Positions 1 to 30,542 of a stretch of DNA of 50,451 bases are shown here, in pieces. Position 1 is the first letter of the stretch, and every line of letters begins with the position of its first letter. Below the pieces are notes generated by a model. It searched no databases, had not been told where the DNA came from, and saw only the letters and a program-made list of their open reading frames with translations. The stretch lies in NCBI GenBank assembly GCA_038067655.1, contig JBBTNS010000002.1, positions 1-50,451 on the forward strand, read 5' to 3'. This DNA is from Nitrospirota bacterium (GTDB taxonomy: Bacteria > Nitrospirota > Nitrospiria > SBBL01 > SBBA01). Position numbers and translations under genes: made by a program.

Positions 1-1
1 C

Positions 2-15000: not shown

Positions 15001-18000
15001 CAGAGCCGGAAAGTGTAAACGGCACGGGGACATCCAATCCGCTCACGGTAGAAAGGGCTGCCGTAATCGTCATCGTTCCAATCTCATTGACGCTCGATTG
15101 AGCGGCTGTCGTAAAGGAGACCGTCGGAGGATCCTCATCATCCGTAATCGTTGCGGTATGAGTCGTCGTGGCCCCAAGCGTTGCATTGGTTGTCGTCCCC
15201 ATCGTGACAATCACCCTTTCATTCTTCTCATCAATTGCGTCGTTGACCATCGTGATCGTGATGGTTGTCGTCGTGGCGCCCGCGGGAATGATGACCGGGG
15301 ATGCTGTAATCGAATAGTCGCTTGGGTCGAATGCGGTAGATGACCCGCTCACCGTAAATGGCACGGTCACATCCAATCCGCTCACGGTAGAAAGCACTGC
15401 CGTAATCGTCATCGTTCCAATCTCATTGACGCTCGATTGAGCGGCTGCCGTAAAGAAGACCGTCGGAGGAAGCTCATCATCTGTAATCGTTGCGGTATGA
15501 GTCGTCGTAGCACCCAGCGTTGCATTGGTCAGGGAGCCCATCGTAACGATCACTGTTTCGTTTTCCTCATCAATGGCATCATCGGGCATCGTGATCGTGA
15601 TGGTTGTTGTGGTGGCACCCGCGGCAATCATCATCGGACTCGCCGTTATCGTATAGTCATCAGTCAGCTTTGCAAAGCCGGAAAGCGTAAACGGCACGGT
15701 GACCTCCAGGCCGCTAACGGCAGAAAGTTCTGCTGTAATCGTCATTGTTCCCGTCTCATTCAGACTCAATTGTTTGTCTTGGGTAAATGTCACAGTCGGC
15801 GGCAATTCATCGCTAACAATTTTGACTGTTTTTTGACTGGTGGTCCCGATGGTGGATTCCGTGGTGGTTGCAATGCTGATTGTGAACGTCTCGTCTTCCT
15901 CATAAAGTAGGTCATCCATTGAAGCCAAAACGACAAAACCCGCGGTGTCTCCCGCGGGGATCGTGATCTCTTTTGAAGACACGTTATAATCAGACCCTTC
16001 GGTCGCCGTGCTCGTTGCAATAACGAGTGTGACTTTCACTTCTAAATTCGAAGGCGCGCTTAAAGAAGCCGTTACTTTGGTAGAGGTTCCGAAGGTTCCA
16101 GTAACTTCTCCAATGGTTTCACTGTCAACCGAAAGCGTCACCACCGGAGCTAAATCATTATTCAAAATTGTAACGGTTTGCGTTGCGCTGCCATCAGTCC
16201 CATTTACGACTACGCCGATGATTGAAACAGTAACGGTCTCATCTTTCTCAAAGAAAAGGTCATGCGTGGCGGTCAGAGAGATCGCCGCCGCCTTTTGCAT
16301 CGCCGGAACGATAATTGTTGTTGTCGCTAACTGATAATCCACTCCATCGGCTGCCGTTCCTCCCTTTGCAAGGGTCACTGTCGTCGGCAACGCGGAAAGC
16401 TTGTCCACTTCGGCTGTTACTTGTGCAATATGACCTGTTCCGCCCTCTTTAATGTTTGCAGGCAATGCGGATAACGTCACCGTTGGCTTTGGATCGTCAT
16501 CCACGATCTCAAGGAACGCCACCTGTTGATCCTGCTCCGTTGCGTTCTTCACATCAATAATTTCAAGATCAACCGTTTCGTCCCCTTCGTAGAAAGGATC
16601 GTCCTTGGCGGTTAATGTGGACGAACCTGACGATTGACCCGCGAGAATGGTAATCGTGTCGGCCAATGTATAGTCGTCTGCGTTTGCGATACTACTATCA
16701 CTCCTTTTAATCGTGACGATAATATCTTCAATGCTGACTCGACCCAGCGTCGCCCTCGTAGAAAGCGTCGCAACGCCTCCATTTTCAACAACACTGAAAG
16801 TGTCAACCGATAACGTCACGAAAATAATATCATTATCGAAAATACTAACGGTCTGTGTGGCAGGCGTTGTGGTACTCATCGTGCAAGACATACCGCAAGC
16901 CATTGTGATGATGACCGTTTCTTCGTCTGTCTCATCAATGGTATCGGCAATGGCCGCTAAAATCACAGAAGCTGATAACTCTCCGACTGGAATCTTTATT
17001 TCAAGAGGAAGATTAAAATCTTGATTCGGCATATCCGGTTTTGCGCTACCTGCTGCTGTCAATGTCACCACCGTATCAATGCCAGAAATAACATTAATCT
17101 CTGCCGTAACCGTTGTGAAAAGAGGAAGGGTCGGATCAGTATTGGTGTCGTTATTATCTTCGTTGAGCTTTTGATTGGCAAGCTTTAGCGTTACAATCGG
17201 GACAGCATCGTCATTCTCAATTGTCGTCGTCGCTTGAGCCGGGCTGCCATTTACCCCTCTGATAATGGTACCCATGTCAACCAAAACAGTCTCATTCGTT
17301 TCAAACGATGGGTCAGATACCGCACCAAGCGTCACAAAATTGTCAATACTGCCCGCCGGAATCGTAATGGATGCCCCGCTGACCGTGTATTCTGAAGGAA
17401 CGGCAATTCCGCTGAACAAAAGAGGCACTTTCACATCAAAGCTGGAGACCGCACTTAATTTTGCAGTAATTTTTACTTCTGTTCCTGAATCTTCCTTGAT
17501 GCTTTCCGGGCTGGCAGAAAGCGAAACACTGGGTTGATCATCGTCATTCACAATTTTGACTGTGACGGGAGTGAAAGTAGCTGCCTTCTCCCCATTCTCA
17601 ATCACACCTGCATCAATGATGACCATTTCATCATCTTCATTCAGGAGATCTACTTTAGGAGTAAGCGTTACAGAGGCAAACATCGCTCCGGCAGGAATGA
17701 CAATCTGAGTAGCAAGCGTATAATCGTCGGCTTTTGCATCACCGCCTACGATCAAGTTCACGGTTGTTGGGAGGCCAGAAACAACATTTAATGTTGCTCT
17801 AATCGTTGCAGTTTCAGAATCTTCTTTAACGATCCCATCCCCGCTCGTGTCATCGGTGCCTGGAAGCTTCACGCCCAAAGTGACTGTGGGTAGGGGGTCA
17901 TCATCTACAATAGTCATGGAAACTTGTCCCGGAGACCCCCTTGTTCCATTGACGACCGTTCCAATATCAACCAAAATCGCCTCATCTTTCTCATAAAGGG

Positions 18001-21000
18001 CATCCGGTTTTGTCGTTATGGGAACAGAGACGGATTTCACCCCGGCTGGAATGTCAATCTGGGCCGCTAAGTCGTAATCTGTCCCGTTTATTGCGACTCC
18101 TGAAGTTAAAAGCGGCACCGTTGTTGGCAGGTCGGATACCGCGTCCAAAGTTGCGGTAATCATCACCACCGTTGTCCCGGTTTCCTCATTGAGAACGGGC
18201 TCATTAACCGATAACGTCACCGTTGGAGGGGGTTCATCATCCACAATCGTTACCATCTTTTTCTGTACGTCTTTCTCAAAGCCTTTTCCAACGGTATCAA
18301 TCTCAATCATGACGGTTTCATCCAACTCAAATAAATCGTTATTCACCGCAGAAAGCGTGACATTCGCCGACTGAGTCCCGGCAGGAATCAAAACACTCTT
18401 GCTGGTCAGGGTGTAATCAGACGGTTCTTTGGCTGTACCCGTTGCCGTTAACGTAACCGTGATATCAAAACCAGATGCTTCACTCAGCGTAAGCGTGATG
18501 ACCGAGTCCGTTGTCGTTCCGTTTTCATTTATTTTATCGGGATTTACTGATAATTCGACTGTTGGCTCTAGATCATCATTTTTAATCGTAAACGTTTTTG
18601 TCTGTAGACTTGTCGTTGTTCCGTTGGTGATGGTCCCGAAATCAATGATCACCGTCTCATCCTCTTCATTAAATGGATCCGCCGTTACAGCAAGGGTGAC
18701 AGAAGTTGTTGTGCTTCCTTCTGGGATGACAATCTCTTTTGGTAGCGTATAATCTATCGTGCTGCTTGCGGTCCCATCGGTCAAAAGGGCAACCTTTACT
18801 TCTTTTCCGGAAGGGGTATCTAACGTCGCTGTCACGAAGACCCCTGTTGTCGCATCTTCCATCTTCTCCAGCGGAGCAAGCGTTAGCGTAACAGTAGACG
18901 CAAGATCGTCATCCACAATTTTAACGGTATCCTCAACAACTGTGCCCGCCAAACAATTACTTCCCGTTCCGCAAACCGCTTTGATACTAACCGTTTCTTC
19001 ATCTTCCTCATCCAATGTATCCGTCTTTGAGGTAATTGTCACAGAAGCCGAAGACGTGCCCGCAGGAACGATCACCTCTCCCACTAAAGTATAGTCATCC
19101 CCCTCTTTCGCCGTTCCTTTCTTTTCCAACGTGGCTTTAACATCCCGTCCGGAGATTGCAGTTAATGTGACCGTTACAGCAGCACTGCCGCCTTCTTCGG
19201 CAATACTCAGCGGCAGCACCGATATTGAGGCCTTGGGCATCGCATCATCATCCAGAATTTTAACCGTCACCGTACTTGATGCAGGGCTTTCTGAACAGAA
19301 CGTGGCATCCTGACACTTCACGGCAACGACGACCATCTCTTCATCTTCTTCATCAAATGGGTCATCGGAAGCGGTCAGCGAAACAGAAGCCGATTTACTG
19401 CCGGCTGGAATGGTGATTTCTTTGGGAATCAGAAGGTAATCGCCCGACTCAATTGCGGTTCCGGTTGCTGTTAAATTAACCGTAACGGGAAATCCAGAAA
19501 TATTATTTAATGTCGCTGTAATCGTAGATACTCCGGCATTTTCTTTAATGCTCAAAAGACTTGCAGACAAAGAGACCGTGGGTGGTGGGGTCGTATCAGT
19601 AATATTTATGGTTAAATCTGATGGAATCCCTAGGCTGGCGTTTGACGCGGCCTGAATCTTAAAAATGACCGTCTCCTCAGGTTCATCAACCAGGTCATTT
19701 TTTGCCCCTAATATAACGGGGACGGATACTTGACCCGCAAGAATATCCACTGTCTTCGTCGAAAGTGTATAATCAGCATCAGTCGCTGTGCTGCCCTCAA
19801 CAGTCAAAACCACCCGAACATCCAGCGCGGAAGGATTAGAAAGCTTCACATCAACGTTTAACGCCTTCCCTTCCAAAACTGAAGTACTCGTCGAAGTCAG
19901 GAAGACCGTCGGAGCCGGGTCATTATCGAGAATCGAAATGATGGGACTCGCGGCTCTAACAGATACTGCATTTTTGAGTCTCGCTAAATCTAAGGTAACA
20001 ATGATGGTCTCGGGTACCTCCTTTCCCTCAAAAATATCATCGTCTATTGTCGTAATCGTACCCACAGCGGTCAGAGCACCTGCGATAATGGTAACGCAGG
20101 TTGATGTCCCCATATCCGTTGTATAATCAAGAGCACGCGATGCGGTTCCGCCAAATGTGAAACAAACGGGAAGCGAGTTCGCCGATTTACCGCTTGCCTT
20201 CACCGCCACTTTGACCGGCTGCCCTTCAATAACTGATTGTGGAGACACCGCGAAGGTAATTGCAGGCGCACGACTCGTCTCAACAATAACCACTTTTAAA
20301 GAATTGGGAATCCCTATTTCGGCACCTTCCACAGATTTTATCTTTAGCTCAACAAATTCATCTGCCCCATTCACTCTTTCATAGAATTTATCCGATTTGG
20401 CACGCAATGTAACAGACGCCCTTGTTTTCCCTGCAGGAATGGTAATCCTCTCCGACACCGTGTAATCCACACCATTGGTCGCCGTTCCCACTCTTTCAAG
20501 CGTCACGATGACCTTCTGAGGAGCCTTCGCGCTCAACCGCGCAATAATCGTCGACTTGCCACTCGCTTCAGAAATTTTTTCACTGATTGTTGTGATGGTG
20601 ACCGTAGGCGCACCATCGTCATCCACGATATTAATAGTAACAACCTCAGTAAACGAAAAAGTGGCACCGGTCGCTTCCGAGATCCCAATGTTGGCCGCCT
20701 CACCCCCTTCACTCAAAGCATCCCCCATTGTTGAAAAGGTAACGAAGGCTGTTGTTTGCCCTGCGGGAATGGTAATCGTCGGCCCTATTTTATAGTCAAC
20801 ACCATTCTTGGCCGTGCCACTCATGATGAGTGTCACAACAACATTGGCGGTCAAAGCAGACTCCATTGTTGCCGTAACCTTTGCAACGCCACCCGATTCT
20901 GGAACCAATGGATTATCAACCGAAAGCGTCACGGTCGGGGCAAGATCATTATCAGCAATCGTTACCGTTGCTTTTGGCTTTGTTATTGGAAGATCGCCCC

Positions 21001-21560
21001 CATCCGCCGCATTGACCGTTAGGATAATGGTCTCATTCGGCTCCTTGTCATCGTCATCGATTGTTATCGCCCTCACAGTCCCATCGAGCTGTCCCTCCGG
21101 AATCGTAATGGTTGTAGTGCTTAACGTGTAATCGGTCGGGGATGCAGTTCCGCTTTTGGCTAATGTCACCATCACATCCCGCCCGGACTTCCGATCTAGC
21201 GTGATTGTGAAAAGAGCATCCCCACCGAGTTCGTCTATTTCAAGAATGTCTACATCAATTGAAACAACAGGCTTCGGATCGTTATCATCGCTAATATTAA
21301 TAGATACCTTCTGTGTAGCAGATGGGGTCACCGCCTCACTATTGATCTCATTAATCTCAACCGTTGCGGCCTCATCTAGCTCATTAAGTTCATCATCAAT
21401 TGTGGTCAGATTAACTGTTCCAGTTAATGTGTTTGGTGGAATGATGATTGACTTCACTGTGGAAAGGCCGTAATCCAAATCGAATTTTGCGGCACCCCCA
21501 ACTGATAAGAGAATCGTGACCTGCGCCGTCTCGACGGCAGAAAGCGTTGCGGTAATAACA
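2..21560 (-). repeat. Coding tandem array of about 65 Calx-beta modules, period roughly 315-345 bp
   Basis: Plus-strand track ORFs of about 100-112 aa recur every 330-345 bp (for example 10851, 11208, 11532; 18429, 18759). They are antisense shadows of the repeated module. My translated segments show the same module boundaries (..DDD.P.V.L..). Confidence 0.8.
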
Positions 21561-21712
21561 CCCGATCCGCCATTCTCACTAATAGTGCTAACGTTAGAAG
21601 AGAGGGTAACTGCTGGAGGAGCTGCCAGGACCCCTCCAACAGAGGAAAAGGAAAGCAATCCCGCTAAAATAAGGGATACCTTCCCCATTTTCGTCTTGGA
21701 AACACGTTCCAT
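2..21712 (-). CDS. Giant secreted Calx-beta repeat protein (putative surface adhesin). 5' end complete, 3' end runs off the left edge; at least 7,237 aa lie in the window
   Basis: The minus-strand frame is open from ATG 21712 to the window edge. The ORF track lists no complete minus-strand ORF in this frame, as expected if there is no stop in the window. Hand translation gives the signal peptide MERVSKTKMGKVSLILAGLLSFSSVGGVLA|APP. This is followed by repeated 105-113-aa modules with the Calx-beta signature (..SG.A..G.DY.L...I.IPAG.T...V.L...D...E..ETV.V.I......VTI.DDD.P.V.L). I checked this at the N-terminus, at 9.6-10.6 kb and at 14.8-15.8 kb. An alternative in-frame ATG lies at 21688. Confidence 0.85.
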   Translation of the reverse strand, partial: MERVSKTKMGKVSLILAGLLSFSSVGGVLAAPPAVTLSSNVSTISENGGSGVITATLSAVETAQVTILLSVGGAAKFDLDYGLSTVKSIIIPPNTLTGTVNLTTIDDELNELDEAATVEINEINSEAVTPSATQKVSINISDDNDPKPVVSIDVDILEIDELGGDALFTITLDRKSGRDVMVTLAKSGTASPTDYTLSTTTITIPEGQLDGTVRAITIDDDDKEPNETIILTVNAADGGDLPITKPKATVTIADNDLAPTVTLSVDNPLVPESGGVAKVTATMESALTANVVVTLIMSGTAKNGVDYKIGPTITIPAGQTTAFVTFSTMGDALSEGGEAANIGISEATGATFSFTEVVTINIVDDDGAPTVTITTISEKISEASGKSTIIARLSAKAPQKVIVTLERVGTATNGVDYTVSERITIPAGKTRASVTLRAKSDKFYERVNGADEFVELKIKSVEGAEIGIPNSLKVVIVETSRAPAITFAVSPQSVIEGQPVKVAVKASGKSANSLPVCFTFGGTASRALDYTTDMGTSTCVTIIAGALTAVGTITTIDDDIFEGKEVPETIIVTLDLARLKNAVSVRAASPIISILDNDPAPTVFLTSTSTSVLEGKALNVDVKLSNPSALDVRVVLTVEGSTATDADYTLSTKTVDILAGQVSVPVILGAKNDLVDEPEETVIFKIQAASNASLGIPSDLTINITDTTPPPTVSLSASLLSIKENAGVSTITATLNNISGFPVTVNLTATGTAIESGDYLLIPKEITIPAGSKSASVSLTASDDPFDEEDEEMVVVAVKCQDATFCSESPASSTVTVKILDDDAMPKASISVLPLSIAEEGGSAAVTVTLTAISGRDVKATLEKKGTAKEGDDYTLVGEVIVPAGTSSASVTITSKTDTLDEEDEETVSIKAVCGTGSNCLAGTVVEDTVKIVDDDLASTVTLTLAPLEKMEDATTGVFVTATLDTPSGKEVKVALLTDGTASSTIDYTLPKEIVIPEGSTTTSVTLAVTADPFNEEDETVIIDFGTITNGTTTSLQTKTFTIKNDDLEPTVELSVNPDKINENGTTTDSVITLTLSEASGFDITVTLTATGTAKEPSDYTLTSKSVLIPAGTQSANVTLSAVNNDLFELDETVMIEIDTVGKGFEKDVQKKMVTIVDDEPPPTVTLSVNEPVLNEETGTTVVMITATLDAVSDLPTTVPLLTSGVAINGTDYDLAAQIDIPAGVKSVSVPITTKPDALYEKDEAILVDIGTVVNGTRGSPGQVSMTIVDDDPLPTVTLGVKLPGTDDTSGDGIVKEDSETATIRATLNVVSGLPTTVNLIVGGDAKADDYTLATQIVIPAGAMFASVTLTPKVDLLNEDDEMVIIDAGVIENGEKAATFTPVTVKIVNDDDQPSVSLSASPESIKEDSGTEVKITAKLSAVSSFDVKVPLLFSGIAVPSEYTVSGASITIPAGSIDNFVTLGAVSDPSFETNETVLVDMGTIIRGVNGSPAQATTTIENDDAVPIVTLKLANQKLNEDNNDTNTDPTLPLFTTVTAEINVISGIDTVVTLTAAGSAKPDMPNQDFNLPLEIKIPVGELSASVILAAIADTIDETDEETVIITMACGMSCTMSTTTPATQTVSIFDNDIIFVTLSVDTFSVVENGGVATLSTRATLGRVSIEDIIVTIKRSDSSIANADDYTLADTITILAGQSSGSSTLTAKDDPFYEGDETVDLEIIDVKNATEQDQQVAFLEIVDDDPKPTVTLSALPANIKEGGTGHIAQVTAEVDKLSALPTTVTLAKGGTAADGVDYQLATTTIIVPAMQKAAAISLTATHDLFFEKDETVTVSIIGVVVNGTDGSATQTVTILNNDLAPVVTLSVDSETIGEVTGTFGTSTKVTASLSAPSNLEVKVTLVIATSTATEGSDYNVSSKEITIPAGDTAGFVVLASMDDLLYEEDETFTISIATTTESTIGTTSQKTVKIVSDELPPTVTFTQDKQLSLNETGTMTITAELSAVSGLEVTVPFTLSGFAKLTDDYTITASPMMIAAGATTTTITITMPDDAIDEENETVIVTMGSLTNATLGATTTHTATITDDELPPTVFFTAAAQSSVNEIGTMTITAVLSTVSGLDVTVPFTVSGSSTAFDPSDYSITASPVIIPAGATTTTITITMVNDAIDEKNERVIVTMGTTTNATLGATTTHTATITDDEDPPTVSFTTAAQSSVNEIGTMTITAALSTVSGLDVPVPFTLSGSAKLTDDYTITVSPVKIVAGTTTTNITITMVNDAFFEENETVDVTMGTTTNATLGATVVHTATIMDDEPAPLVTLSSEFSTIEEKATGVVVTKIIATLDNLSNLPVTVNLKTGGMAKANDYTFNNAVINIPAGIKSGFVTLATKNDLFNESPETVTVDIDAVTLGKEKDVQQVTVTIADDDPIPTIALEVATLILNEDPAATGTTTTSVTARLSAISGKDVKAIFVLTGSTATRFVDFNIGENPTLEILIPAESGKTGVIMLDTIGDSFNENEETVDIEIISAENATKPGTQKKTVKILNDDPLPTVELLIDSPTIGEDAGGTGLNVTASLSNASGRPITVNLKKDGVAINGVDYTLPDSITIPEGTPSAAVLLVAKTDDLNEFNEDAIITIDSVTNGFAIIKVGGETQTVIITDDDPIPTLSVLVGSETINEKTGTGTNTSVTVKLSARSGKRVTVTLKKSGATKETDDYTLSGTGDIVLTIPADHATGMVSVTLASVHDVLDEDDETVVVTIDRVDGADMSLFPEDLEKTVRILDDDALPTITLAVVNTLVTEDSATTTETTLTAALNVKSGRNVTVNLLIGGNAKYDKDYRLPKAIVIEEGTLSTVVSLSAVADTLNEFNETVVVEVDSILNGTSTGQKKTVTIADNDAMPTLTLSVAPNTSITENTTEATSTTAVIAKLSAPSGKPITVNLKKTGTATDNVDYTLATTTITIAEDDPSGEGSVTLTAKKDALVEEDEEIIIDILSLVNTATTSVQTQTVTIPNEQLLPLVTLSVGTSTIAETGGNTIVTATLDFASSRTITVPLLRTGTATLTKDYSLAEKITILAGALTGVTTVTSVHDTLFEGIDSETVLINIDPAMINANASDSLEQKIEIADDDESSIVTLSTNSLNIPETAGVASIKATLNRPSGIPVVVTLAINVDSTATDADFLLESLTITVPSGILSAAVTLSAAHDILDELDQTVILDMVTVENGIKGTSTQVTVKIIDDDDPPFVSISTDVDNINEEGTNTETNAIVKLDTLSEKDVTVTLKRLGIAKEADYTLSTSTLLIAAGVLDASAVISALPDDLNEHLETIELEIDELTLKNGRKSVDTFKKVVTITDDDPKPNLTLAVDPIAVTEDLGVTQSIVKVVIDLVSGRDIPVTLEKSGMATNDLDYKLPDTITIPEGQTEMFVTFSAVGDKTHEQGETAILDLSVEFANEVGQQQKTVTIANDDDPPIVTLLVGSEKINESGVGSSTHVIAMLSDPSSFPVTVKLGISGTGVEGTDYNFSGTTTIIVPAGTSSSFVTLSAMDNSVFDTNKRVVMDILDVTNGTTSDILENRQKTVTIIEDEGAPTVSLNVADIEIPETGGTTRVSLTLSEASALPVTIKLVKSGTAKDKDDYTLVDEVTIPAGQLEEVLTLSSVSDFLFEGVERETIIVSLGELVFGAKISGADRFEVKINDDDAVPTVTLVAGSPRISETAPANTTTIRATLSNVAGKDVIVTLTQNCGMATKCGTTVDTDFTLANKIVIPAGEQSNFVTLTATPDAVHENDETVIISIGGIENGRDVSVRQTVTIVNDDLPPTVKVSAGTLEINEVGGTTSVIVTLSSASSFDITVKLEKAGTAIDLTDYTFGNTTVLFPAGTDTQSVILKSKTDGFDEDDETVEVSIFDTGLNATEDGIQKVSVKILDGNPSPVVTLTAGSNALSEDVSANTTTITVTLDKASGRNVNVGIVKTDFATDTKDYELTDMIVILAGDTSKVVELKILDDELSEYLENITLAVLCDATCTRGSPADQTISITDNENLPTVSLSVASDNVSEFEGSASSTTKMTVALNTLSGRPVIVKLATSGRASGTSTAPLPNTLDYKFDRTIVIAEGTLFTTVTFSSVDDRMDEPSETVIINIAEVVNGTSSGLATDSQTITILDDDAPSIVTLTSDRAMIHEDVAAITKTPIRVALDVVSGFDVKVNLDRKGNASDFLDYNIPDSITVPAGQLTAFVDLVAVNDTLDEADEETVLISVLSPVVNGTKSETQETLTVAIVNDDLPPSVSLKVDSEAITEEPIGETAVVTAFLSTVSQKDIVVQLKKLGTAKEGVDYKLPVEIKIPAGDPQASVILSAMPDDLNEESETIIIGIGDVTNGTQNGIQEKIVKILDNEAKPIATLSVAANTLSEDFGVISTLVTVKLNVPSGQDITLTLSKNGTATDVKDYTLGTTTLLIPAGQTIASTTLSAEADALNEEEETIILDINTVENVLKSTTQTPQIVTISDNDPIPTVKLSVDSATINEVRPGESTIVRATLSAVSGRDVTVTLKTDGDATEGKDYTFNFKTFTISAGIASTTFTLTALDDPINEVEELVIVEIEKVERGLIDGIQRETVTILSDDAVPSVTLSVNKGSINEEGVLSSAAVIATLSTISSKTVTVPLVKQGTAKETFDYTLADRIVIPAGQSTASTTLLAVTDPIYEKNETVELNIGLVVINGTTSPLQQMVPVTLVDNELAPKVTLSVDNGSINEVAPGNTAKVTALLSEPSGLDVVVSLEKTGLAKEDLDYTLISTITVLAGKQSGFVTLSAKTDTLDEDVETFVIDIYQITDGTELDQQQQSVTILNGNLAPTVDLSIEGGSINENPASTTQTMVVATLSTASAKIVTVTLGKGGGAVDEADYKLNPTIIIPAGATFGSVTLTSVNDGMFEADETVELVIDRADNAVAVGVPQAVIIVSDDNPPKVSLLVDRSIINEKSSPNSTTVMARLDVISSFDTTVDLATNGRATALDYSLTTTIVIPAGTLSNVVSLVSQDDPLDEFDEEIMINLGSLTHGEKGTSSQVTVKLLDDDDEPSVTISAAASEIGEGTGTTTTTLTATLSTVSGKEVTVFLKKSGAAIEGVDYKNLPNQIVVPVGSKAASIDLNATDDELDEEDKEDVVFEVMSAENAIKAGLQTQTVMIVDDELPPVVTLSVGTFELNEDAGITSAIVTVSIDVVSGKEITVNLSKAGTAQDTVDYRLETAMLVIPPGSKFATTTLSSIPDSIDEKDETVELSINAVNNGAKTALPPQIVTILDDEKAPTITLTVTPDKIGENVGTVVSTVRVTLSAISGLDVKVDFVKGGSAKDGIDYNLSPTMTVFAGKLFNTISLAAIPDTLYEEEERIIITVDNIENGTSTVQQQKMVTLVSEDPKPTVSLSVAGTINETEPGESTPVMAVLNTPSGHDVTVTLTKSGIAKDGVDYTLKETIVVPAGQDSASIPLAALPDPLNETDDESVVIAIIGVVDAFIKDNKQEKTVLINDDDFPPSVTISVASDTMNEKGGATTVTATTTAPSSFDIAVTLAKSGAASDGVDYTLGNLMIIPAGETATSLPLTSKDDPNYEEDELVSIKILSLTSSTEAGGAGSQEKNVKIVNDDPKPTVTLSAIASIAETGGKTLVTATLSAASNLPVTLTVTSTNSPAIKGTDYEISTTTITIAVGQTTGSVTLSALHDDLFETNETVAVEIATVTDGIKGGTPAVVAIMDDESAPGITLLVSQVLLNEETSPTRADVSIQLNAESGQDVTVTLSKLGSTATEGEDYAFDGNIGGKTVIVVPAGKTLASVTLNVITDTLNESDETIEISIESVDKGTENSPQRKKVTILNDDELPTVTLSTNPANIAEKGGASIVTAALITASGKEVTVHLKKGGTATDVSDYSFSKVPIIITIPAGQITGSVTLSATDDFLSEDEETVTVDIDKVVHGTSTTPQGRTVKIIDDDPQPIVTLSVVGASSLTEPSGTTLVKAALNKVAGRDVTVTLKKTGKATDDADYELPNTILIPTGVISASVTFAVKNDFLNEENPETAIITINSVMNGVLSGTQQKTINIADEDRLPVVTLSAGALTIRETGGGTSPNATLVTATLDQLSGRDVTVTVVKGGNALFTTDYTIAGTIVIPAGQASGAVTLTAAFDLIDEVDETVVLNIEGSVTNGTRNSTQEDILVKVIDDDEPPVIRLFSGVAIIDEAGTSTRTAITAELGCSVNPDPTVTCPSSFDITVSLVIATSTKAKPTDYTLPLTIFIPAEETSGFVLLTAKDDILNEDDETVVIRIGSLIKATDNNQEVTVKIKDNDPLPKVILQAAPTSINEAAPSSVTVQLADASGQIIASGRDVIVQLKTSGAATSATDECLAVVPVAPNCVVDYTLQTQIVIPEGATSTTVVLSALGDTLHEKDEAVILDVDDLVINGEELGIQSQTVIIKNDDLPPTVSISLADFKIKEDKASPTSTVATVFLDTPSGLDTTITLSMGVDPTVDATEGEDYTLSNAAGLFTSTLNSILIPAGATSTTLTLTSMFDDIDEGLGEDVIFAIKTAENGTKNTNLTTVTIEDDDVTFVSLSAGKNRLLESVSESTLFTAKLDLKSNKNVVVNLVKIGNAKDGIDYALLDKITVPAGSFEASITFDVMPDDFDEFDETVTVEIGKVLFATKTEDPIGQKQTIEIVDEDATPTVALTIGHLSVFEDSTQGTATTTIIATLSAVSGRQVTVPFTKGGIATEGSTDDYTLSPLNVSRFDIPEGTKSVSIPVTVVNDNLFEENETIIFNLNPAPTHAEILNATQTREITIFDNEPPPTVTLSQDGVATIAEEPASGAISMVVTAKLSEVSGKDVRVSLVTGGRAKRDIDYKLSDSVITILKGDTLGTISITALPDSLNEHDEEVTVTISGTNGGLIGVDKSRSVTITDNDPLPTMTLEAVPPSIAEVDGLSTITAKLNVLSGRDVTVNLKTTGDAVQDKDYRMDTQIVIPEGAISASGSLVSKDDLLNEHNEKVTVDIDTVEFVSREGVVPVNVVIVDNDPLPLATLSVGSFIIEENGATTTNVTVSLAPVSGRTVTVTIAPNALLSNAINNTDYVFATTTLTIAEGATSTSITLTAQSDNLDEVDEAVVIDIDVPTFAAESGEQQQKVTIKDVNVPAIVTLSVNKQFLDENVGTTSMATVRLTLDTISAKDITVTLKKTPGVAPLFPAKDVEDYTLATSTVVITAGQSSTSTIFQVTADGRNEH
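14790..15810 (-). repeat. Three consecutive Calx-beta modules that are still similar at the nucleotide level (recent internal tandem duplication)
   Basis: The landmark ccgtaatcgtcatcgttcc occurs at 15061 and 15400 (339 bp = 113 codons apart), with a variant ctgtaatcgtcattgttcc at 15733 (333 bp further). About 185 nt around the first two landmarks align at roughly 90% identity by eye. The plus-strand shadow ORFs 14825..15343 and 15437..15910 have visibly related translations. Confidence 0.8.
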
Positions 21713-21828
21713 AGATGAAACCTGGCACGGATCATCTTTTTTATTTATAATGAATAACTCGTTATCTGGCACAATAACCCTTTCAATCTTTCATTCTATC
21801 TAGAAGACCAACTTCGTTGCATATGTAT

Positions 21829-21856
21829 CTATCGGCAACCTCTATCTAAAACTTTA
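21829..21856 (-). promoter_or_regulatory. Sigma-28 (FliA)-type promoter upstream of the giant Calx-beta gene
   Basis: The minus strand reads TAAAGTTT-TAGATAGAGGTT-GCCGATAG. The enteric consensus is TAAAGTTT-N11-GCCGATAA. The -35 block matches 8/8 and the -10 block 7/8, but the spacer is 1 nt longer than consensus (TAAA-N16-GCCGATAG versus N15). It sits 21 nt after the flgE stop and about 115 nt before ATG 21712. Confidence 0.55.
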
Positions 21857-21876: not shown

Positions 21877-23718
21877 TTATCGTTTCAAATTAATGATTTC
21901 CTGAGTGACCTCGTCCGAAGTCGTAATCACCCTGGAATTCGCCTGAAACCCTCTTTGGTACGTTATCATCTTTACAAACTGCTCGGTTAAGTCCACATTC
22001 GACCTCTCTAATGCCCCAGCAACCACTTTCCCACGATCTCCAATCCGAGCCGGCTCAATCAACGGGGCACCAGAACTATCCGTCTGAATGTAATTATTAC
22101 CCCCCACTCGAACAAGGCCTGTCTCATCTGGAAATGTAGCAAGCAATAATTGTGCCAAAGCGTGATTCTTCCCATTTGAAAAAAGACCGTTGATGATACC
22201 GGTATTATCAACATCAAAAGTTTGGAGCGTCCCGGACGAAAAGCCATCTTGTACCTGCTTTAACACCGTTGAGATCTTCCCAAATTGCGTCGCTCCAGAA
22301 AAATCAAACGTAACATCCTGATCCTCAGTCGCACCGCCGCTAAAATCAAAACCCTCTGTCGTGAATGCGCTGGTCGGCTCACCAAAAAGCAAGCCATCTG
22401 GCGTAAATTCCATGACGCCTGTCGCTTGTACTTCGTCAAATTCTCCGTTTAGGTTGTCATTTTTCCCGACAATCGCATTCCAAGCCCAACGACTTTCCCC
22501 GCCGCTAAGGACGACATCTAGCCCTGTCGCCGGATCCGTTCCTATAACCAATGGAACCGGTGTTAACCGGATATAGCTCATTTGAACCGTGTGTTGCACC
22601 CCGAGAGAGTCAAACATGGCCACATTACTTGTAAAGTCGGCACTCCGCCTGCCCGCAACAAAATCTTCACCAATACCAGCACTTGTATCCACCTCCTCTG
22701 TGATCGTCAACTGGGTATCAGATTGAACAGCCTGCACAATGTAAGAGCGATTTGAAACAATAATGGAATCCCCTGCTCTAATCTCGGATAAGAATTTTGT
22801 GTCAGTCCCTAAAAATACTTTCTCTTCTCCATCCGCATCACTTGGGGTCACGACCCCGGTTAAAACCTGACTGAGGCTATTGGGTTTGAAAAATGTACCG
22901 GTGGATAAGCCCGTCTTGGCAGGAATGGTTGGATCAACGAGGGTATTGAGATCAATAACAATGGGGCCGCCATTTGCATTCGTCAACATTAAGAATTCCA
23001 CGTCCTCCTTCGCACTCACCCCGGTCAACTCTGTCTGCTCATTAATGGCCTCAATCAGACTTTCTATCCCTGGTCCAATTTCATCAAAAGTAACACCATT
23101 GATGATCAAGCCTTCGAAAGGAATCGTCTCATCATTCGGATTAACTGGAATCTTCCCACTAAACGTGTTAGCGATATCAAACTCTTTGGAGGCCAGGTTA
23201 ATGGACGTGAGGACCTCGGTTGTCGCTCTCGGAGGAGAAACCCTGTTAGAAAGATCAATCGGACCGGCACCCGCGCCAGGAATTGGCAGTCCCGTAACGG
23301 GGTCAATCTCAATTGCTGTCCCCTGGAGCAACAAGCCGTCAATATTGACGACCAGTCCATTCTTATCAACATGAAACGCGCCCGCCCGGCTAAAAAACGG
23401 AGTTGCTTCCCCAAAAGGATCTTCCAGTACAAAAAAACCTTTCCCTTCAATGGCCAAATCCAGTGGATTCTGGGTACGCTCTATCAAACCCTGGCGAAAA
23501 GGGGCACGAATTTGATCCGTGAGCGCGCCGTCTCCTGTTTGGTAGCGAGACCCGCCATGAGAATGAGAAAACCGATTGATCATCTCGGAAAAGAGAATGT
23601 CGTTCTCCTTAAATGCGATCGTATCAACGTTCGCAATGTTATCGCTGATAACGGTCAATCCCCGCTGAAAAGCCTGGATGCCGCTTGTTGCTGTGCTCAG
23701 TGAAGGTATAATAGCCAT
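21877..23718 (-). CDS. flgE: Flagellar hook protein FlgE
   Basis: N-terminus ..SGIQAFQRGLTVISDNIANVDTIAFKE and C-terminus ..SNVDLTEQFVKMITYQRGFQANSRVITTSDEVTQEIINLKR are the conserved FlgE/rod-family terminal helices. The gene follows flgD. I prefer ATG 23718 to the track start 23724 because the AGGAG at 23726-23730 is 7 nt from 23718 and only 1 nt from 23724. Confidence 0.9.
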   Translation of the reverse strand: MAIIPSLSTATSGIQAFQRGLTVISDNIANVDTIAFKENDILFSEMINRFSHSHGGSRYQTGDGALTDQIRAPFRQGLIERTQNPLDLAIEGKGFFVLEDPFGEATPFFSRAGAFHVDKNGLVVNIDGLLLQGTAIEIDPVTGLPIPGAGAGPIDLSNRVSPPRATTEVLTSINLASKEFDIANTFSGKIPVNPNDETIPFEGLIINGVTFDEIGPGIESLIEAINEQTELTGVSAKEDVEFLMLTNANGGPIVIDLNTLVDPTIPAKTGLSTGTFFKPNSLSQVLTGVVTPSDADGEEKVFLGTDTKFLSEIRAGDSIIVSNRSYIVQAVQSDTQLTITEEVDTSAGIGEDFVAGRRSADFTSNVAMFDSLGVQHTVQMSYIRLTPVPLVIGTDPATGLDVVLSGGESRWAWNAIVGKNDNLNGEFDEVQATGVMEFTPDGLLFGEPTSAFTTEGFDFSGGATEDQDVTFDFSGATQFGKISTVLKQVQDGFSSGTLQTFDVDNTGIINGLFSNGKNHALAQLLLATFPDETGLVRVGGNNYIQTDSSGAPLIEPARIGDRGKVVAGALERSNVDLTEQFVKMITYQRGFQANSRVITTSDEVTQEIINLKR

Positions 23719-23755
23719 GGTCATTCTCCTTATATTAAAGGGCCCAAAATTGGCC

Positions 23756-24412
23756 CTATCTCAAAACCCTTTTAACTTCTCCCAGCGGAACCGATGCGCC
23801 ATTGACAGTCAGTGTCGGCCCCTTTTCTCCGTAGGTGATACCGGAAACCTCCCCTTCTGAAGAGATCGGCACGGCCGATAATTTCCCATCCTTATCCTTA
23901 AACGAGATCACATAATTATAAGTGCCAGCGCCGACAGCGTTCCCACTGTTGTCCCGGCCATCCCATTTAATCTCGGCTGGACCTTTTTTAAACGCGCCTG
24001 AAGACGTTATTGATCTCACCACCCCCCCAAATAAATCTTGAACCTGCATAACCACTTCCGATGTATCCTCGTTCAATTGATACGAAATCCTCTCGGCAAT
24101 CCCAGCAAGATGCGTCAATCGCCCTCCCGGCACCTCCACACGCCTACCAAGCAAATTTGATGCCGCTAAGTTACTCATTGCGACCGTTTCATGCGCCAAG
24201 ATATCCAGCTTCTTATTAATCTCGATGGAGGATTCTAGCTCTCTAAATTGAGCCAACTGTGCGACAAACTCGGTGGAGTCCATTGGTTTCAACGGGTCCT
24301 GAAACTGTAACTGCTTCGTTAACAAATTCAAGAATGCCTCTTTTCCCAATCCTTTAGCACCTGCTCCAGATGTTAAAGATGCTGTAGATGTTGTCGCTGC
24401 TGAAATATGCAT
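23756..24412 (-). CDS. flgD: Flagellar hook assembly/capping protein FlgD
   Basis: The motif ..KEAFLNLLTKQLQFQDPLKPMDSTEFVAQLAQFRELE.. is typical of the FlgD N-terminal domain. The C-terminal region looks beta-rich, as in FlgD. AGGAG lies 7 nt upstream of the ATG. The gene lies between fliK and flgE. Confidence 0.9.
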   Translation of the reverse strand: MHISAATTSTASLTSGAGAKGLGKEAFLNLLTKQLQFQDPLKPMDSTEFVAQLAQFRELESSIEINKKLDILAHETVAMSNLAASNLLGRRVEVPGGRLTHLAGIAERISYQLNEDTSEVVMQVQDLFGGVVRSITSSGAFKKGPAEIKWDGRDNSGNAVGAGTYNYVISFKDKDGKLSAVPISSEGEVSGITYGEKGPTLTVNGASVPLGEVKRVLR

Positions 24413-24423
24413 TTTATACTCCT

Positions 24424-25959
24424 TTACACATACACGCTGATTTGACCCTTTTGCCCGTCCCCAGAGAACATCCGAGTCTCTAATATTCCCAACTCGGACG
24501 TAAGATCGTGATTCAATGACTCTCCATCTTGTAAAGCAATACGTGTGCCATAACCATTTGACTGGTCACGATAGGGAAAATGACGTGAAGATTGCCCAAA
24601 ATCGCCCACATTCACTGAAAATTGATCAACAACAAAGCCGGCATTTGCGAGGGCGTCACGTAAAATCGTCTGATTCTTGTCTAAAATTTCTTTGACGGCG
24701 GCCGATTGCGTCAGAATATCGGCGGAAACGACATTTTTATGAATCGCAATGTCAATTGTAAGGGCACCCAGTTCTTTTGGCTCAAGCTCAAGACGGATTC
24801 TATCACTCCCTTTTGATACCATCTTGTTTATGGCCACCTTCTGGACAATCTGTTCCATCAGCTCATGTTCGACAATCTGGGATTCCGGTCTCCATTGGGG
24901 AGATAGGAAGCGAGTGGCAACCCTATCGCTCTTTTGCCCTTCTACTAAAGAAATCGTTTGTATCATCGGGGCAGGTTCCGTTAGTTTCGCCATAGGGGCG
25001 GGTTCTGTTAGTTTCGCCATAGGGGCGGGTTCCTGTAGCCCCGTCATATTCGTATCTGTTTGCCTACTGCTCATCCCCTCTCGCATCATAACGGTCTCAG
25101 ATAATTTCACACCCTGATCATCCGTCAAAAATTCTCGCCCCACCTCTTTAGCGGCTTTCTGAAGCACTGCCTGATCAACCGGTACAGATTTAGAAGATGT
25201 TGCCAATTCTGATTTTACCAATTCGACCCATTCAGAAGACTCAACCAATACATTCGATTCCATTACATTGGATTCCATAGCCTCCATCTTATAGCCCGTG
25301 AGACTTCTCCCTTCAAAAGTAAAGCCTGCCAAGTCTTCTCCTGAATTCTGATTCATCATCTCCTGATTGAAATGCGCCCAGTTTAAATCGGCAAGCGTCG
25401 TCTCCTTCATCTTGCTATTATTTTGCCTCAGAAGCAGGGATGCGATCAGCTCATCCAACTCGACATCGGCGATTGCAACGGTGGCAGGATAGGCCTCCTC
25501 ATTGCCATCAAATGTCCCCGGTTGTTGTCCATCTTGCGCCACGGGTTGCTGCATGGGCTGTTGCAAAGCATAGCCTGTATAATCCATGTTTACGATAGCG
25601 GGAATGTCCTGCTCAGAATTTAAAACAGCCTGTTCAGGTAAGTCAGCCATCAGGGCATGCATCGGAGCTTCGAACGAATCAGATGGTGCAATCATCCCAA
25701 TTACAGAAAGTAACGAGAGGGTTGCGCAAAGCTCATCAGAAGAAACCATGCACGATCCCATGTGCTCATTTTCCCTCTGCATCTGTGTTTCTTCTAATAC
25801 TGTCTGCATTTTCTCCTCCCTTTCTGCTTCTGTCAGAACCTCTTGAAAAAGGCTCGACTCTTGCTCTATTAATCCTGATATATTTACAGCCCCCTCACCC
25901 GCTATAATCATATTGGGACTGGTCGTTACTGATAATAAAATAGAATTAGATTCCAACAT
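24424..25959 (-). CDS. fliK: Flagellar hook-length control protein FliK
   Basis: The C-terminal region ..IRLELEPKELGALTIDIAIHKNVVSADILTQSAAVKEILDKNQTILRDALANAGFVVDQFSVNV.. matches the FliK C-terminal (Flg_hook) domain. The N-terminal and central parts are acidic, Pro/Gln-rich and low in complexity. GAGGAG RBS is present. The gene is directly upstream of flgD-flgE. Confidence 0.85.
   Translation of the reverse strand: MLESNSILLSVTTSPNMIIAGEGAVNISGLIEQESSLFQEVLTEAEREEKMQTVLEETQMQRENEHMGSCMVSSDELCATLSLLSVIGMIAPSDSFEAPMHALMADLPEQAVLNSEQDIPAIVNMDYTGYALQQPMQQPVAQDGQQPGTFDGNEEAYPATVAIADVELDELIASLLLRQNNSKMKETTLADLNWAHFNQEMMNQNSGEDLAGFTFEGRSLTGYKMEAMESNVMESNVLVESSEWVELVKSELATSSKSVPVDQAVLQKAAKEVGREFLTDDQGVKLSETVMMREGMSSRQTDTNMTGLQEPAPMAKLTEPAPMAKLTEPAPMIQTISLVEGQKSDRVATRFLSPQWRPESQIVEHELMEQIVQKVAINKMVSKGSDRIRLELEPKELGALTIDIAIHKNVVSADILTQSAAVKEILDKNQTILRDALANAGFVVDQFSVNVGDFGQSSRHFPYRDQSNGYGTRIALQDGESLNHDLTSELGILETRMFSGDGQKGQISVYV
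24968..25040 (-). repeat. 27-bp in-frame tandem repeat (about 2.6 copies) inside fliK, encoding (T/Q)EPAPMAKL
   Basis: Units ggggcaggttccgttagtttcgccata (24968-24994) and ggggcgggttctgttagtttcgccata (24995-25021) are followed by a partial third copy. The protein reads LQEPAPMAKLTEPAPMAKLTEPAPMIQ. Confidence 0.9.
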
Positions 25960-25995
25960 TCTTTTCTCCTCAATACGCTTACGCCATTATACAAA

Positions 25996-26010
25996 GCAAA
26001 AGGCATACCA
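25996..26010 (-). promoter_or_regulatory. Sigma-54 (RpoN) -24/-12 promoter candidate for fliK-flgD-flgE
   Basis: The minus strand reads TGGTAT-GCCTT-TTGCT against the consensus TGGCAC-N5-TTGCW. The GG and GC dinucleotides have the correct spacing. It lies 37-51 nt upstream of the fliK ATG. Confidence 0.5.

Positions 26011-30467: not shown

Positions 30468-30542
<75 letters not shown>

What the first reader, a model, noticed from the sequence alone, without database searches (positions are those of the whole stretch)
21829..21856. Near-consensus sigma-28 (FliA) promoter places the giant Calx-beta protein under late flagellar control
The 164-bp gap between the flgE stop (21877) and the giant-gene ATG (21712) contains, on the coding strand, TAAAGTTT-TAGATAGAGGTT-GCCGATAG. 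The enteric FliA consensus is TAAAGTTT-N11-GCCGATAA, and the Bacillus SigD consensus is TAAA-N15-GCCGATAT. Fifteen of the 16 specified bases match. The one deviation is a spacer 1 nt too long (TAAA-N16). A chance match of this quality in a 164-bp gap next to hook genes seems unlikely to me. If it is functional, a surface protein of more than 7,000 aa would be expressed only after hook-basal-body completion, through the FlgM/FliA checkpoint. I am not aware of a described giant Calx-beta protein under FliA control.
Basis: partly seen in the sequence, partly recalled or inferred. Interest (0 to 1): 0.72.

Follow-up and report, generated by a model that had tools for sequence, protein, structure and literature searches.

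The report
Conserved sigma-28 promoter before giant adhesin gene
A textbook flagellar "late gene" promoter sits in front of a giant surface-protein gene directly behind the flagellar hook genes of an uncultured Nitrospirota bacterium; it is kept in eight diverged relatives, so it is very probably real, though a surface adhesin tied to flagellar regulation has a precedent.

Summary
About 2.7e-7 such matches are expected by chance in this gap.

Comparison settles the promoter call. Eight lineages, whose FlgE is only 45-57% identical to the window's, all carry fliK-flgD-flgE followed by an orthologous giant gene (one is 17,648 aa). All keep the two promoter boxes (117/120 bases). The spacer sequence drifts (49% identity) and is 12 nt in six lineages and the canonical 11 nt in two. 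A close relative without the giant gene lacks the motif.

The organism belongs to Ca. Troglogloeales (Nitrospirota). That same relative has flhB-flhA-flhF-flhG followed by a fliA-like 5' fragment. The giant protein has at least 19 Calx-beta and 6 LapA-type repeats and a signal peptide.

Corrections:
- The gene starts at GTG 21772, not ATG 21712.
- "Only after hook completion" is not established. The window has no terminator after flgE, and a conserved perfect sigma-54 motif lies inside flgE.
- There is a precedent: Vibrio cholerae FrhA, a Calx-beta adhesin regulated as a FliA-dependent class 4 flagellar gene.

Verdict: a real sigma-28-type promoter, and a new member of a known kind. The unusual part is the conserved hook-operon/giant-gene module.

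The parts
21849..21856 (-). -35 element TAAAGTTT of the sigma-28-type promoter, preceded by a conserved C at 21857
   Evidence: Read directly. Identical in 7 of 8 orthologous loci; L008 has TTAAGTTT.
21837..21848 (-). 12-nt spacer TAGATAGAGGTT
   Evidence: The sequence is not conserved (49% mean pairwise identity, against 95% for the boxes). The length is 12 in six lineages and 11 in L007 and L135.
21829..21836 (-). -10 element GCCGATAG (extended GC plus core CGATA)
   Evidence: RCCGATA is kept in all eight lineages, and the last base varies (G/C/T).
21820..21824 (-). Predicted transcription start, about 7 nt after the -10 element (around A 21822). Inferred, not mapped.
   Evidence: Inference from the geometry of E. 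coli sigma-28 promoters (own knowledge). No transcript data were available.
21778..21784 (-). Shine-Dalgarno sequence GAAAGGG of the giant gene
   Evidence: A GAAAGG(G/A) block is conserved 5-7 nt before the GTG in the aligned orthologs.
1..21772 (-). Giant gene, open for more than 7,257 codons and running off the window. The true start is GTG 21772 (MPDNE...), followed by a signal-peptide-like segment ending ...VLAAPPAVTLSS and then Calx-beta and LapA-type repeats.
   Evidence: The ORF is open to the window edge and GTG 21772 is the first start codon after the in-frame stop at 21793. GTGCC(A/G)GA... is conserved, and gene callers use this start in L002, L007, L008 and L010. Pfam finds Calx-beta in 11+8 stretches and the LapA domain in 4+2.
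21877..23724 (-). flgE (hook protein, 615 aa), last gene of the fliK-flgD-flgE operon
   Evidence: Pfam domains Flg_bb_rod, LlgE_F_G_D1, FlgE_D2 and Flg_bbr_C.
23756..24412 (-). flgD (hook cap)
   Evidence: Pfam FlgD, FlgD_ig and FLgD_tudor.
24424..25959 (-). fliK (hook-length control)
   Evidence: Pfam Flg_hook.
25995..26010 (-). Sigma-54-type promoter TGGTATGCCTTTTGCT upstream of fliK
   Evidence: Conserved at the same place in L002, L007 and L010, and in the Manganitrophaceae loci L132 and L133.
22142..22157 (-). Perfect sigma-54 consensus TGGCACAATTATTGCT inside flgE, 281 nt before its stop. Possible internal promoter reading into the giant gene.
   Evidence: It lies at the same distance from the stop in seven lineages (window, L002, L005, L007, L008, L010, L135). 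Its codons are invariant in the six lineages that were codon-aligned, where only 27 of 194 invariant-residue columns keep an invariant codon. It is absent from L132, L133 and L134.

Best explanation
This is a functional sigma-28 (FliA/SigD-family) promoter dedicated to the giant gene. RNA polymerase carrying the flagellar sigma factor would bind TAAAGTTT and GCCGATAG, start transcription near 21822, and produce an mRNA with a leader of about 50 nt, a GAAAGGG ribosome-binding site and a GTG start at 21772. The product is a Sec-exported surface protein of more than 7,257 aa built from Calx-beta and LapA-type repeats, most likely an adhesin or surface fibre. The hook operon upstream (fliK-flgD-flgE) has a sigma-54-type promoter, so the locus follows the sigma-54 then sigma-28 hierarchy known from polar flagellates, with the giant gene wired into the late tier alongside flagellin-class genes. 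Shown here: the motif, its conservation, its link to the giant gene, the protein's domain content, the sigma-54 motifs, and a fliA-like gene start in a close relative. Inferred: actual recognition by FliA, the transcription start, FlgM-checkpoint timing, and the adhesin function. Timing is probably not exclusively late in this organism, because read-through from flgE and a possible internal sigma-54 promoter may also feed the gene.
For: The motif is exact and unique in the window, and its chance expectation in the gap is 2.7e-7. Eight loci with FlgE 45-57% identical to the window's share the order fliK-flgD-flgE-giant gene, while the DNA upstream of fliK differs, apart from the two genes just upstream (GGDEF and a small unknown gene), which L010 shares with the window. 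All eight have the motif between flgE and the giant gene: 117/120 box bases are conserved, against 49% identity in the spacer, and the spacer is 12 nt in six loci and 11 nt in two. The giant proteins align from the N-terminus and are orthologous. The negative control L011, from a MAG whose SecY is 87% identical, has flgE but neither the giant gene nor the motif. L136, from the same MAG, carries flhB-flhA-flhF-flhG followed by a 67-aa ORF start whose five NCBIfam hits are all FliA/WhiG sigma-28 models (best E 4e-8). The +1 spacer is compatible with function. The C. pneumoniae hctB sigma-28 promoter has it (PMC3333780). In a metagenome scan, spacers of 11, 12 and 13 gave 72, 39 and 9 hits, and the spacer-12 sites precede 2 flgM-like and 2 chemoreceptor genes, the latter two behind identical promoter sequences. 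From memory, Yu et al. 2006 (PMID 16855242, not readable here) found that 11- and 12-nt spacers are transcribed equally well by E. coli and Chlamydia sigma-28 polymerase.
Against: There are no transcript data, so neither the start site nor FliA dependence is shown. The window's own genome was not available beyond this contig, so fliA, flgM and the organism's real flagellin promoters were not seen. The fliA evidence is a 67-aa fragment, below the family cut-offs, in a relative. No class III flagellar promoter from this clade could be retrieved for comparison. In the window and in L002 nothing resembling a terminator separates flgE from the giant gene, and a sigma-54-like motif lies inside flgE, so the sigma-28 site may not be the only or main driver.
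Confidence: 0.8

Rival explanations
1. The giant gene is transcribed mainly as the fourth gene of the sigma-54-dependent hook operon, by read-through from the fliK promoter or from an internal sigma-54 promoter in the 3' end of flgE. On this view the sigma-28 site only adds a late boost, so expression is middle plus late rather than checkpoint-gated. This rival is compatible with the promoter being real; it disputes only its dominance.
For: Sigma-54-type motifs are conserved upstream of fliK (26010-25995), inside fliK (24550-24535) and inside flgE (22157-22142). The two exact TGGCAC-N5-TTGCT matches in the 50-kb window both lie on the sense strand of this operon; at up to 1 mismatch the window has 3 matches against 0.61 expected. 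Synonymous codons at the flgE site are invariant in six lineages, against 14% elsewhere in the gene. No terminator or hairpin follows flgE in the window or L002.
Against: Four of the six loci folded (L005, L007, L010 and, weakly, L008) have a hairpin between flgE and the -35 box; L135 carries the same palindrome by sequence. L134 keeps the sigma-28 motif but has no internal flgE sigma-54 motif. The flgE site encodes a conserved LAQLLL peptide, and L011, which has no giant gene, still has GG-N10-GC there, so coding constraint may explain part of it. Strict conservation of a separate sigma-28 promoter argues that read-through alone is not sufficient.
Confidence: 0.3
2. The site is recognised by a sigma-28-family paralogue (WhiG/SigD-like) or another sigma factor that is not coupled to FlgM export and flagellar assembly, so the gene is not a flagellar-checkpoint gene despite the motif.
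For: Sigma-28 controls non-flagellar genes in non-flagellated Chlamydia (hctB, tsp; PMC12282069, PMC3333780). No flgM gene and no full fliA gene was seen for this clade.
Against: The motif sits directly behind the hook operon in all eight lineages. The only sigma-28-like gene seen in the close relative follows flhF-flhG, the normal position of flagellar fliA. The same order (Manganitrophaceae) has a complete-looking flagellar export cluster.
Confidence: 0.1
3. The motif is a chance match or a decaying relic of a promoter that once served another late flagellar gene, with no present function.
For: The spacer is 1 nt longer than the enteric consensus, and the last base of the -10 element differs from the consensus.
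Against: The chance expectation is 2.7e-7 in the gap. 117/120 box bases are kept across eight lineages in which neutral sites are saturated, with only 14% identical codons at invariant FlgE residues. The motif is absent where the giant gene is absent.
Confidence: 0.03

Closest known systems
Class 3 sigma-28 (FliA) promoters of E. coli/Salmonella (consensus TAAAGTTT-N11-GCCGATAA) and SigD promoters of Bacillus subtilis
   Same: The -35 box is identical and the -10 box matches 7 of 8 bases, including the GC extension and the CGA core. The site lies upstream of a gene, next to flagellar genes. Two orthologues (L007, L135) have the canonical 11-nt spacer (consensus as given in PMC2859248).
   Different: The spacer is 12 nt in the window and in five other lineages. 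The target is a giant non-flagellar surface protein. The host is an uncultured Nitrospirota lineage in which no sigma-28 promoter has been mapped.
Chlamydia hctB (and tsp) sigma-28 promoters
   Same: This is a validated sigma-28 promoter whose spacer is one nucleotide longer than the consensus (TNAAG-N15-GCC in C. pneumoniae; PMC3333780), the same spacing as here. Its target is also non-flagellar.
   Different: Chlamydia has no flagellum. Here the promoter is embedded in a flagellar locus.
Vibrio cholerae FrhA (flagellum-regulated hemagglutinin A)
   Same: FrhA is a large surface adhesin containing Calx-beta repeats. Its expression falls in FlrA, FlrBC and FliA mutants, so it is treated as a class 4 flagellar gene. 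It is linked to a flagellum-regulated diguanylate cyclase (PMC6890996, citing Syed et al. 2009). In the window, a GGDEF gene lies two genes upstream of fliK.
   Different: In PMC6890996, frhA expression also depends on the flagellum-regulated diguanylate cyclase CdgD by a route the paper calls unclear, and no sigma-28 promoter box at frhA is described in the passages read. FrhA is an RTX adhesin, a family I know to use type I secretion. It is far smaller (about 2,250 aa, from memory) and, as far as I know, not adjacent to the hook genes. The protein here has a Sec-type signal peptide and is at least 7,257 aa (17,648 aa in a relative).
LapA-type giant adhesins of Pseudomonas
   Same: Pfam LapA-domain repeats (6 stretches) and Calx-beta repeats in a very long extracellular protein.
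   Different: The N-terminus looks like a cleavable Sec signal peptide rather than a LapG-cleaved retention module. The C-terminus (RTX repeats, type I secretion signal) lies outside the window and was not seen. No lapBCE, lapD or lapG genes lie nearby.

Membership tests
Sigma-28 (FliA/SigD/WhiG)-dependent promoter | -35 element TAAA(GTTT) | tested here: met
   TAAAGTTT at 21856-21849. It is kept in 7 of 8 orthologous loci; L008 has TTAAGTTT.
Sigma-28 (FliA/SigD/WhiG)-dependent promoter | -10 element GCCGATAA with the critical CGA core | tested here: met
   GCCGATAG at 21836-21829 matches 7 of 8 bases and has CGA. RCCGATA is present in all eight loci.
Sigma-28 (FliA/SigD/WhiG)-dependent promoter | Spacer of 11 nt between the 8-mers (12 nt tolerated) | tested here: inconclusive
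   The window has 12 nt, so the canonical 11 is not met. Twelve is the conserved state in six lineages and 11 occurs in two orthologues. The same +1 spacing is found in the validated C. pneumoniae hctB promoter (PMC3333780) and upstream of flgM-like and chemoreceptor genes in metagenomes. Spacer-12 sites are less enriched for flagellar genes (4/35) than spacer-11 sites (at least 19/65).
Sigma-28 (FliA/SigD/WhiG)-dependent promoter | Correct orientation and distance upstream of a gene, and conservation with that gene | tested here: met
   The -10 box ends 39-60 nt before the conserved GTG in seven loci; in L134 it lies about 210 nt before the called ATG start. The motif is absent in L011, which lacks the gene.
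Sigma-28 (FliA/SigD/WhiG)-dependent promoter | A sigma-28 gene in the same genome | tested here: inconclusive
   The window's genome cannot be inspected. In MAG GCA_016195485.1 (SecY 87% identical), a 67-aa ORF start after flhG gives five NCBIfam hits, all to FliA/WhiG models (E 4e-8), below the cut-offs because it is a fragment.
Sigma-28 (FliA/SigD/WhiG)-dependent promoter | Transcription start about 7 nt downstream of the -10 element, dependent on FliA | not testable with these tools
   No transcript data or genetics are available.
Late (class 3/4) flagellar gene gated by the FlgM-FliA checkpoint | Transcription only from the sigma-28 promoter, insulated from middle-class operons | tested here: not met
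   The window has no hairpin or terminator between flgE and the promoter. Sigma-54-type motifs lie upstream of fliK and inside flgE. Some relatives do have a hairpin after flgE.
Late (class 3/4) flagellar gene gated by the FlgM-FliA checkpoint | The anti-sigma factor FlgM is present and exported through the hook-basal body | not tested
   No flgM gene was seen in any locus of this clade.
LapA/RTX-type giant adhesin | Long array of Ig-like, Calx-beta or LapA repeats | tested here: met
   Pfam finds 19 Calx-beta stretches and 6 LapA-domain stretches in 7,257 aa.
LapA/RTX-type giant adhesin | C-terminal RTX repeats and type I secretion signal; N-terminal retention module with a LapG site | not testable with these tools
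   The C-terminus lies beyond the window and beyond the 10-kb flanks of all related loci. The N-terminus instead looks like a Sec signal peptide (…LILAGLLSFSSVGGVLAAPP…).

The most novel reading that the evidence does not exclude
In one Troglogloeales clade, a 7,000-17,600-aa Calx-beta/LapA-repeat protein has become a fixed, dually controlled (sigma-54 plus sigma-28) member of the flagellar regulon, physically fused to the hook operon. It would then be not just an adhesin that happens to be co-regulated but a flagellum-coupled structure, for example a fibre or tether deployed together with the filament. This would be the first giant protein with its own sigma-28 promoter box within the flagellar assembly hierarchy.
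Probability: 0.15. Interest if true: 0.75.

Novelty: new member of a known kind. Interest (0 to 1): 0.5.

Why it matters
The promoter type is textbook, and adhesins tied to flagellar regulation are known (FrhA), so the mechanism is not new. Three things are new. First, there is comparative proof that a sigma-28 promoter, usually with a 12-nt spacer, is maintained in an uncultured Nitrospirota order that includes the manganese-oxidising Manganitrophaceae. Second, its target is one of the largest bacterial genes, up to 53 kb. Third, this gene is locked behind fliK-flgD-flgE in eight lineages. This gives a concrete, testable handle on when such giant proteins are made, namely together with the flagellar filament in cells that are swimming and about to attach. 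It also offers a simple cis-element for finding late flagellar genes in these genomes.

Tried and rejected
- An exact look-up of the window's FlgE found nothing.
- The single genome-contig scan with FlgE gave one 5.4-kb Troglogloeales contig that ends inside flgE, so it shows nothing downstream.
- A protein search with the first 600 aa of the giant protein returned no protein longer than about 1,040 aa, none of them the giant orthologues, so the C-terminus and secretion type stay unknown.
It returned no locus of this clade and no clade-specific flagellin or flgM promoter, and served only for spacer statistics.
- Yu et al. 2006 on sigma-28 spacer tolerance is not held in the library; its result is quoted from memory only.
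- Rfam found no riboswitch or other RNA family near the leader. The only hit is a tRNA at 30468-30539.
- NCBIfam and Pfam gave nothing for the 201-aa ORF between the GGDEF gene and fliK.
- The hairpins after flgE in relatives were considered as intrinsic terminators. They lack a following U-tract, so I do not call them terminators.
- Papers on Manganitrophaceae and aquifer Nitrospirota say nothing about this locus.

Full report
**Observation.** On the minus strand the window reads ...CGATAA TTTATTATGGTTAATTTTT C TAAAGTTT TAGATAGAGGTT GCCGATAG ATACATATG....
- The -35 box TAAAGTTT is at 21856-21849, the spacer is 12 nt, and the -10 box GCCGATAG is at 21836-21829.
- The ORF ending at 21877 is FlgE, preceded by FlgD and FliK, all on the minus strand.
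- The site is unique in the window. TAAA-N14-17-GCCGATA occurs once against 0.09 expected. The full motif with up to 3 mismatches also occurs once.
- From the window's base composition, the 15 specified bases with a spacer of 11 or 12 are expected 2.7e-7 times in the gap and 2.3e-4 times in the whole window.

**Who and where.**
- The window's SecY falls in a 90%-identity cluster with SecY of MAGs named Candidatus Troglogloeales bacterium. This order belongs to Nitrospiria, Nitrospirota, and also contains Ca. Manganitrophaceae.
- Every gene annotated here is on the minus strand; only the tRNA at 30468-30539 is on the plus strand. In order of transcription these genes are: the end of a ribosomal-protein/secY/adk/map cluster; type IV minor pilins with a 1,400-aa protein that has a PilY1 beta-propeller domain; two fatty-acid oxidation genes; a GGDEF diguanylate cyclase; a 201-aa unknown ORF; fliK-flgD-flgE; and the giant ORF.

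**The giant gene.**
- The ORF is open from 21772 to the window edge, more than 7,257 codons.
- The first start codon after the in-frame stop at 21793 is GTG 21772. It is preceded by GAAAGGG.
- The block GAAAGG(G/A)-N5-7-GTGCC(A/G)GA is conserved in the orthologues, and gene callers chose that GTG in four of them.
- The protein therefore starts MPDNE..., followed by a short variable segment and a signal-peptide-like stretch ending ...AAP(P/S)(A/V)VTLSS.

**Comparative test of the promoter.**
- The window's FlgE is not in the public collection, and its best relatives are at most 57% identical.
- I fetched contigs for seven of these relatives, whose FlgE is 45-57% identical to the window's.
- With the window, this makes eight lineages sharing the order fliK-flgD-flgE-giant gene: window, L002, L005, L007, L008, L010, L134 and L135.
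- The called giant products are 17,648, 13,294, 11,924 and 11,350 aa. The last three are cut by contig ends.
- The DNA upstream of fliK differs between the loci, except that L010 shares with the window the two genes just upstream of fliK (a GGDEF gene and a small unknown gene).
- The giant proteins align from residue 1 and are orthologous.
- In every one of these loci the sigma-28 boxes lie between flgE and the giant gene:

| Locus | -35 box | Spacer (nt) | -10 box |
|---|---|---|---|
| window | TAAAGTTT | 12 | GCCGATAG |
| L002 | TAAAGTTT | 12 | GCCGATAG |
| L005 | TAAAGTTT | 12 | GCCGATAC |
| L008 | TTAAGTTT | 12 | ACCGATAC |
| L010 | TAAAGTTT | 12 | GCCGATAT |
| L134 | TAAAGTTT | 12 | GCCGATAT |
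| L007 | TAAAGTTT | 11 | ACCGATAT |
| L135 | TAAAGTTT | 11 | GCCGATAT |

- 117 of 120 box bases match the consensus (95% mean pairwise identity). The 12-nt spacers are 49% identical, and the rest of the intergenic DNA aligns poorly.
- Neutral sites are saturated between these lineages. Only 27 of 194 invariant FlgE residues keep the same codon in the six codon-aligned lineages.
- This is the footprint expected of a two-box promoter. That the spacer length toggles between 11 and 12 is itself typical of sigma-28.

**Negative control and fliA.**
- MAG GCA_016195485.1 (Ca. Troglogloeales bacterium) has a SecY 87% identical to the window's.
- Its flgE contig (L011) has a hairpin and then convergent, unrelated genes. 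It has no giant gene and no sigma-28 motif.
- Another contig of the same MAG (L136) carries flhB-flhA-flhF-flhG followed by the first 67 codons of an ORF. All five of that ORF's NCBIfam hits are FliA/WhiG sigma-28 models (best E 4e-8); the scores are below the cut-offs because only about 40 residues overlap the models.
- Manganitrophaceae contigs (L132, L133) show a full export cluster: two-component sigma-54 activators, then fliK-flgD-flgE-fliLMNOPQR-flhBA-flhF-flhG.
- So the order is flagellated, a close relative very probably has fliA, and the window's clade has the giant gene where Manganitrophaceae have fliL.

**The extra spacer base.**
- The validated C. pneumoniae hctB sigma-28 promoter is described as TNAAG-N15-GCC, one base longer than the TNAAG-N14-GCCGATA consensus (PMC3333780). 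That is exactly the spacing found here.
- From memory, Yu et al. 2006 (PMID 16855242, not held) reported equal activity of 11- and 12-nt spacers with Chlamydia and E. coli sigma-28 polymerase.
- As an independent look, I scanned JGI metagenomes for CTAAAGTTTT-N10-12-GCCGATA. The 120 hits split 72, 39 and 9 for spacers of 11, 12 and 13. Chance would give equal numbers.
- Downstream ORFs of the spacer-11 sites include 11 FlgM-like proteins, 6 flagellins, one FlgK and one CheW, out of 65 ORFs.
- Spacer-12 sites include 2 FlgM-like proteins and 2 Cache-domain chemoreceptors, out of 35. The two chemoreceptor sites have identical promoter sequences.
- Spacer 12 is therefore a minority but genuine state at true late flagellar genes.

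**Upstream regulation and the limits of "late only".**
- A sigma-54-type motif, TGGTATGCCTTTTGCT (26010-25995), lies about 35 nt (from its last base) before the fliK start. It is conserved in L002, L007, L010, L132 and L133, and repeated TAGGCAA boxes lie further upstream.
- Unexpectedly, the window's only two exact matches to TGGCAC-N5-TTGCT both lie on the sense strand of this operon. At up to 1 mismatch the window has 3 matches against 0.61 expected.
- One exact match is in the 3' end of fliK (24550-24535), 123 nt before flgD. The other is in the 3' end of flgE (22157-22142), 281 nt before the stop.
- The flgE site lies at that same distance from the stop in seven lineages: the six codon-aligned ones and L135.
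- The flgE site encodes LAQLLL, but its Leu and Ala codons are invariant in all six codon-aligned lineages. Manganitrophaceae and L134 encode a similar peptide without the motif.
- L011 keeps GG-N10-GC there despite having no giant gene, so the meaning of this site is open.
- The window and L002 have no hairpin between flgE and the -35 box. L005, L007 and L010 have 9-13-bp hairpins there, and L008 a weak one, though without a U-tract.
- The giant gene in this organism may therefore also be reached by sigma-54-driven transcription. The sigma-28 promoter is real, but exclusive checkpoint gating is not demonstrated.

**Comparison with known systems.**
- The site passes the sequence-level membership tests for a sigma-28 promoter. 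The functional tests (start site, FliA dependence) cannot be run here.
- Non-flagellar genes under FliA are well known.
- The nearest analogue for the target is V. cholerae FrhA, a Calx-beta/cadherin RTX adhesin whose expression drops in flrA, flrBC and fliA mutants and depends on a flagellum-regulated diguanylate cyclase (PMC6890996).
- It may be relevant that a GGDEF gene lies two genes upstream of fliK in the window and in L010.
- This case differs from FrhA in four ways: the promoter boxes sit directly on the gene, the gene is far larger, it has a Sec-type N-terminus, and it is fixed behind the hook operon.

**Verdict.** It is wrong on the start codon and overstated on exclusivity and novelty. 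I rate it a new member of a known kind, with moderate interest driven by the conserved hook-operon/giant-gene module.

Noticed in passing
window 22142-22157 (-) and 24535-24550 (-): The window's only two exact sigma-54 consensus sites (TGGCAC-N5-TTGCT) both lie on the sense strand inside the 3' ends of flgE and fliK. Both are conserved in the clade, and the flgE site has invariant synonymous codons. They may be internal promoters for the giant gene and for flgD-flgE.
   Followed up: partly
window 25995-26010 (-) and about 26060-26150 (-): A sigma-54-type promoter, TGGTATGCCTTTTGCT, lies before fliK and is conserved even in Manganitrophaceae. Upstream are repeated TAGGCAA-N(5-8)-CC boxes (two copies in the window and in L002), which look like enhancer-binding-protein sites.
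   Followed up: partly
L005 about 4157-4186, L007 about 10580-10605, L010 about 11972-12003, L135 about 3308-3332: A palindromic hairpin, GGGG(C)AAAAGA(C)TTTTT(G)CCCC, ends 3-5 nt upstream of the -35 box in some orthologues but is absent from the window, L002 and L134. The arm sequences differ between loci while pairing is kept. No U-tract follows it, so it could be a transcript-end hairpin or a regulator binding site.
   Followed up: partly
L002 (ENA ERZ1292636, 65,168-nt contig), gene from locus position 11967: The orthologous giant gene is called at 17,648 aa (about 53 kb) and seems to end about 255 nt before the contig end. If so, it is a complete gene and among the largest bacterial genes. 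Its C-terminus could not be fetched.
   Followed up: no
L011 and L136 (NCBI MAG GCA_016195485.1): A relative with SecY 87% identical has flgE followed by unrelated convergent genes and no giant gene, so the giant gene is variably present among fairly close relatives. The same MAG has flhBAFG followed by a fliA-like ORF start.
   Followed up: partly
window 26204-26809 (-) and 26787-28295 (-): A GGDEF diguanylate cyclase and an overlapping 201-aa ORF with no family match lie just upstream of fliK. The same pair precedes fliK in L010. This suggests a possible c-di-GMP link to the hook/giant-gene module, as with CdgD and FrhA in Vibrio.
   Followed up: no
window 21712-21772 (-): The giant protein has a conserved MPDNE N-terminus and a variable extension of 10-30 aa before the hydrophobic signal-peptide core. 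This is an extended signal region of unknown role.
   Followed up: no
window 31497-40224 (-): A type IV pilus minor-pilin cluster (four N_methyl proteins plus a weak PilX_N match) with a 1,400-aa protein that has a PilY1 beta-propeller domain and a 318-aa Ig-domain protein. Further along, at 46130-50407, is a 1,425-aa protein with two OmpA-type domains.
   Followed up: no
L040, L123, L125 (metagenome loci): Three unrelated metagenome contigs carry spacer-12 sigma-28 motifs in front of small ORFs that begin MSVSGI/MSVGSI and are rich in Ser and Gln. They may be an unannotated family of late flagellar proteins (FlgM-like?).
   Followed up: no
window 30468-30539 (+): A tRNA gene (Rfam, 68.9 bits) on the plus strand, opposite to every gene annotated in the window.
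   Followed up: no
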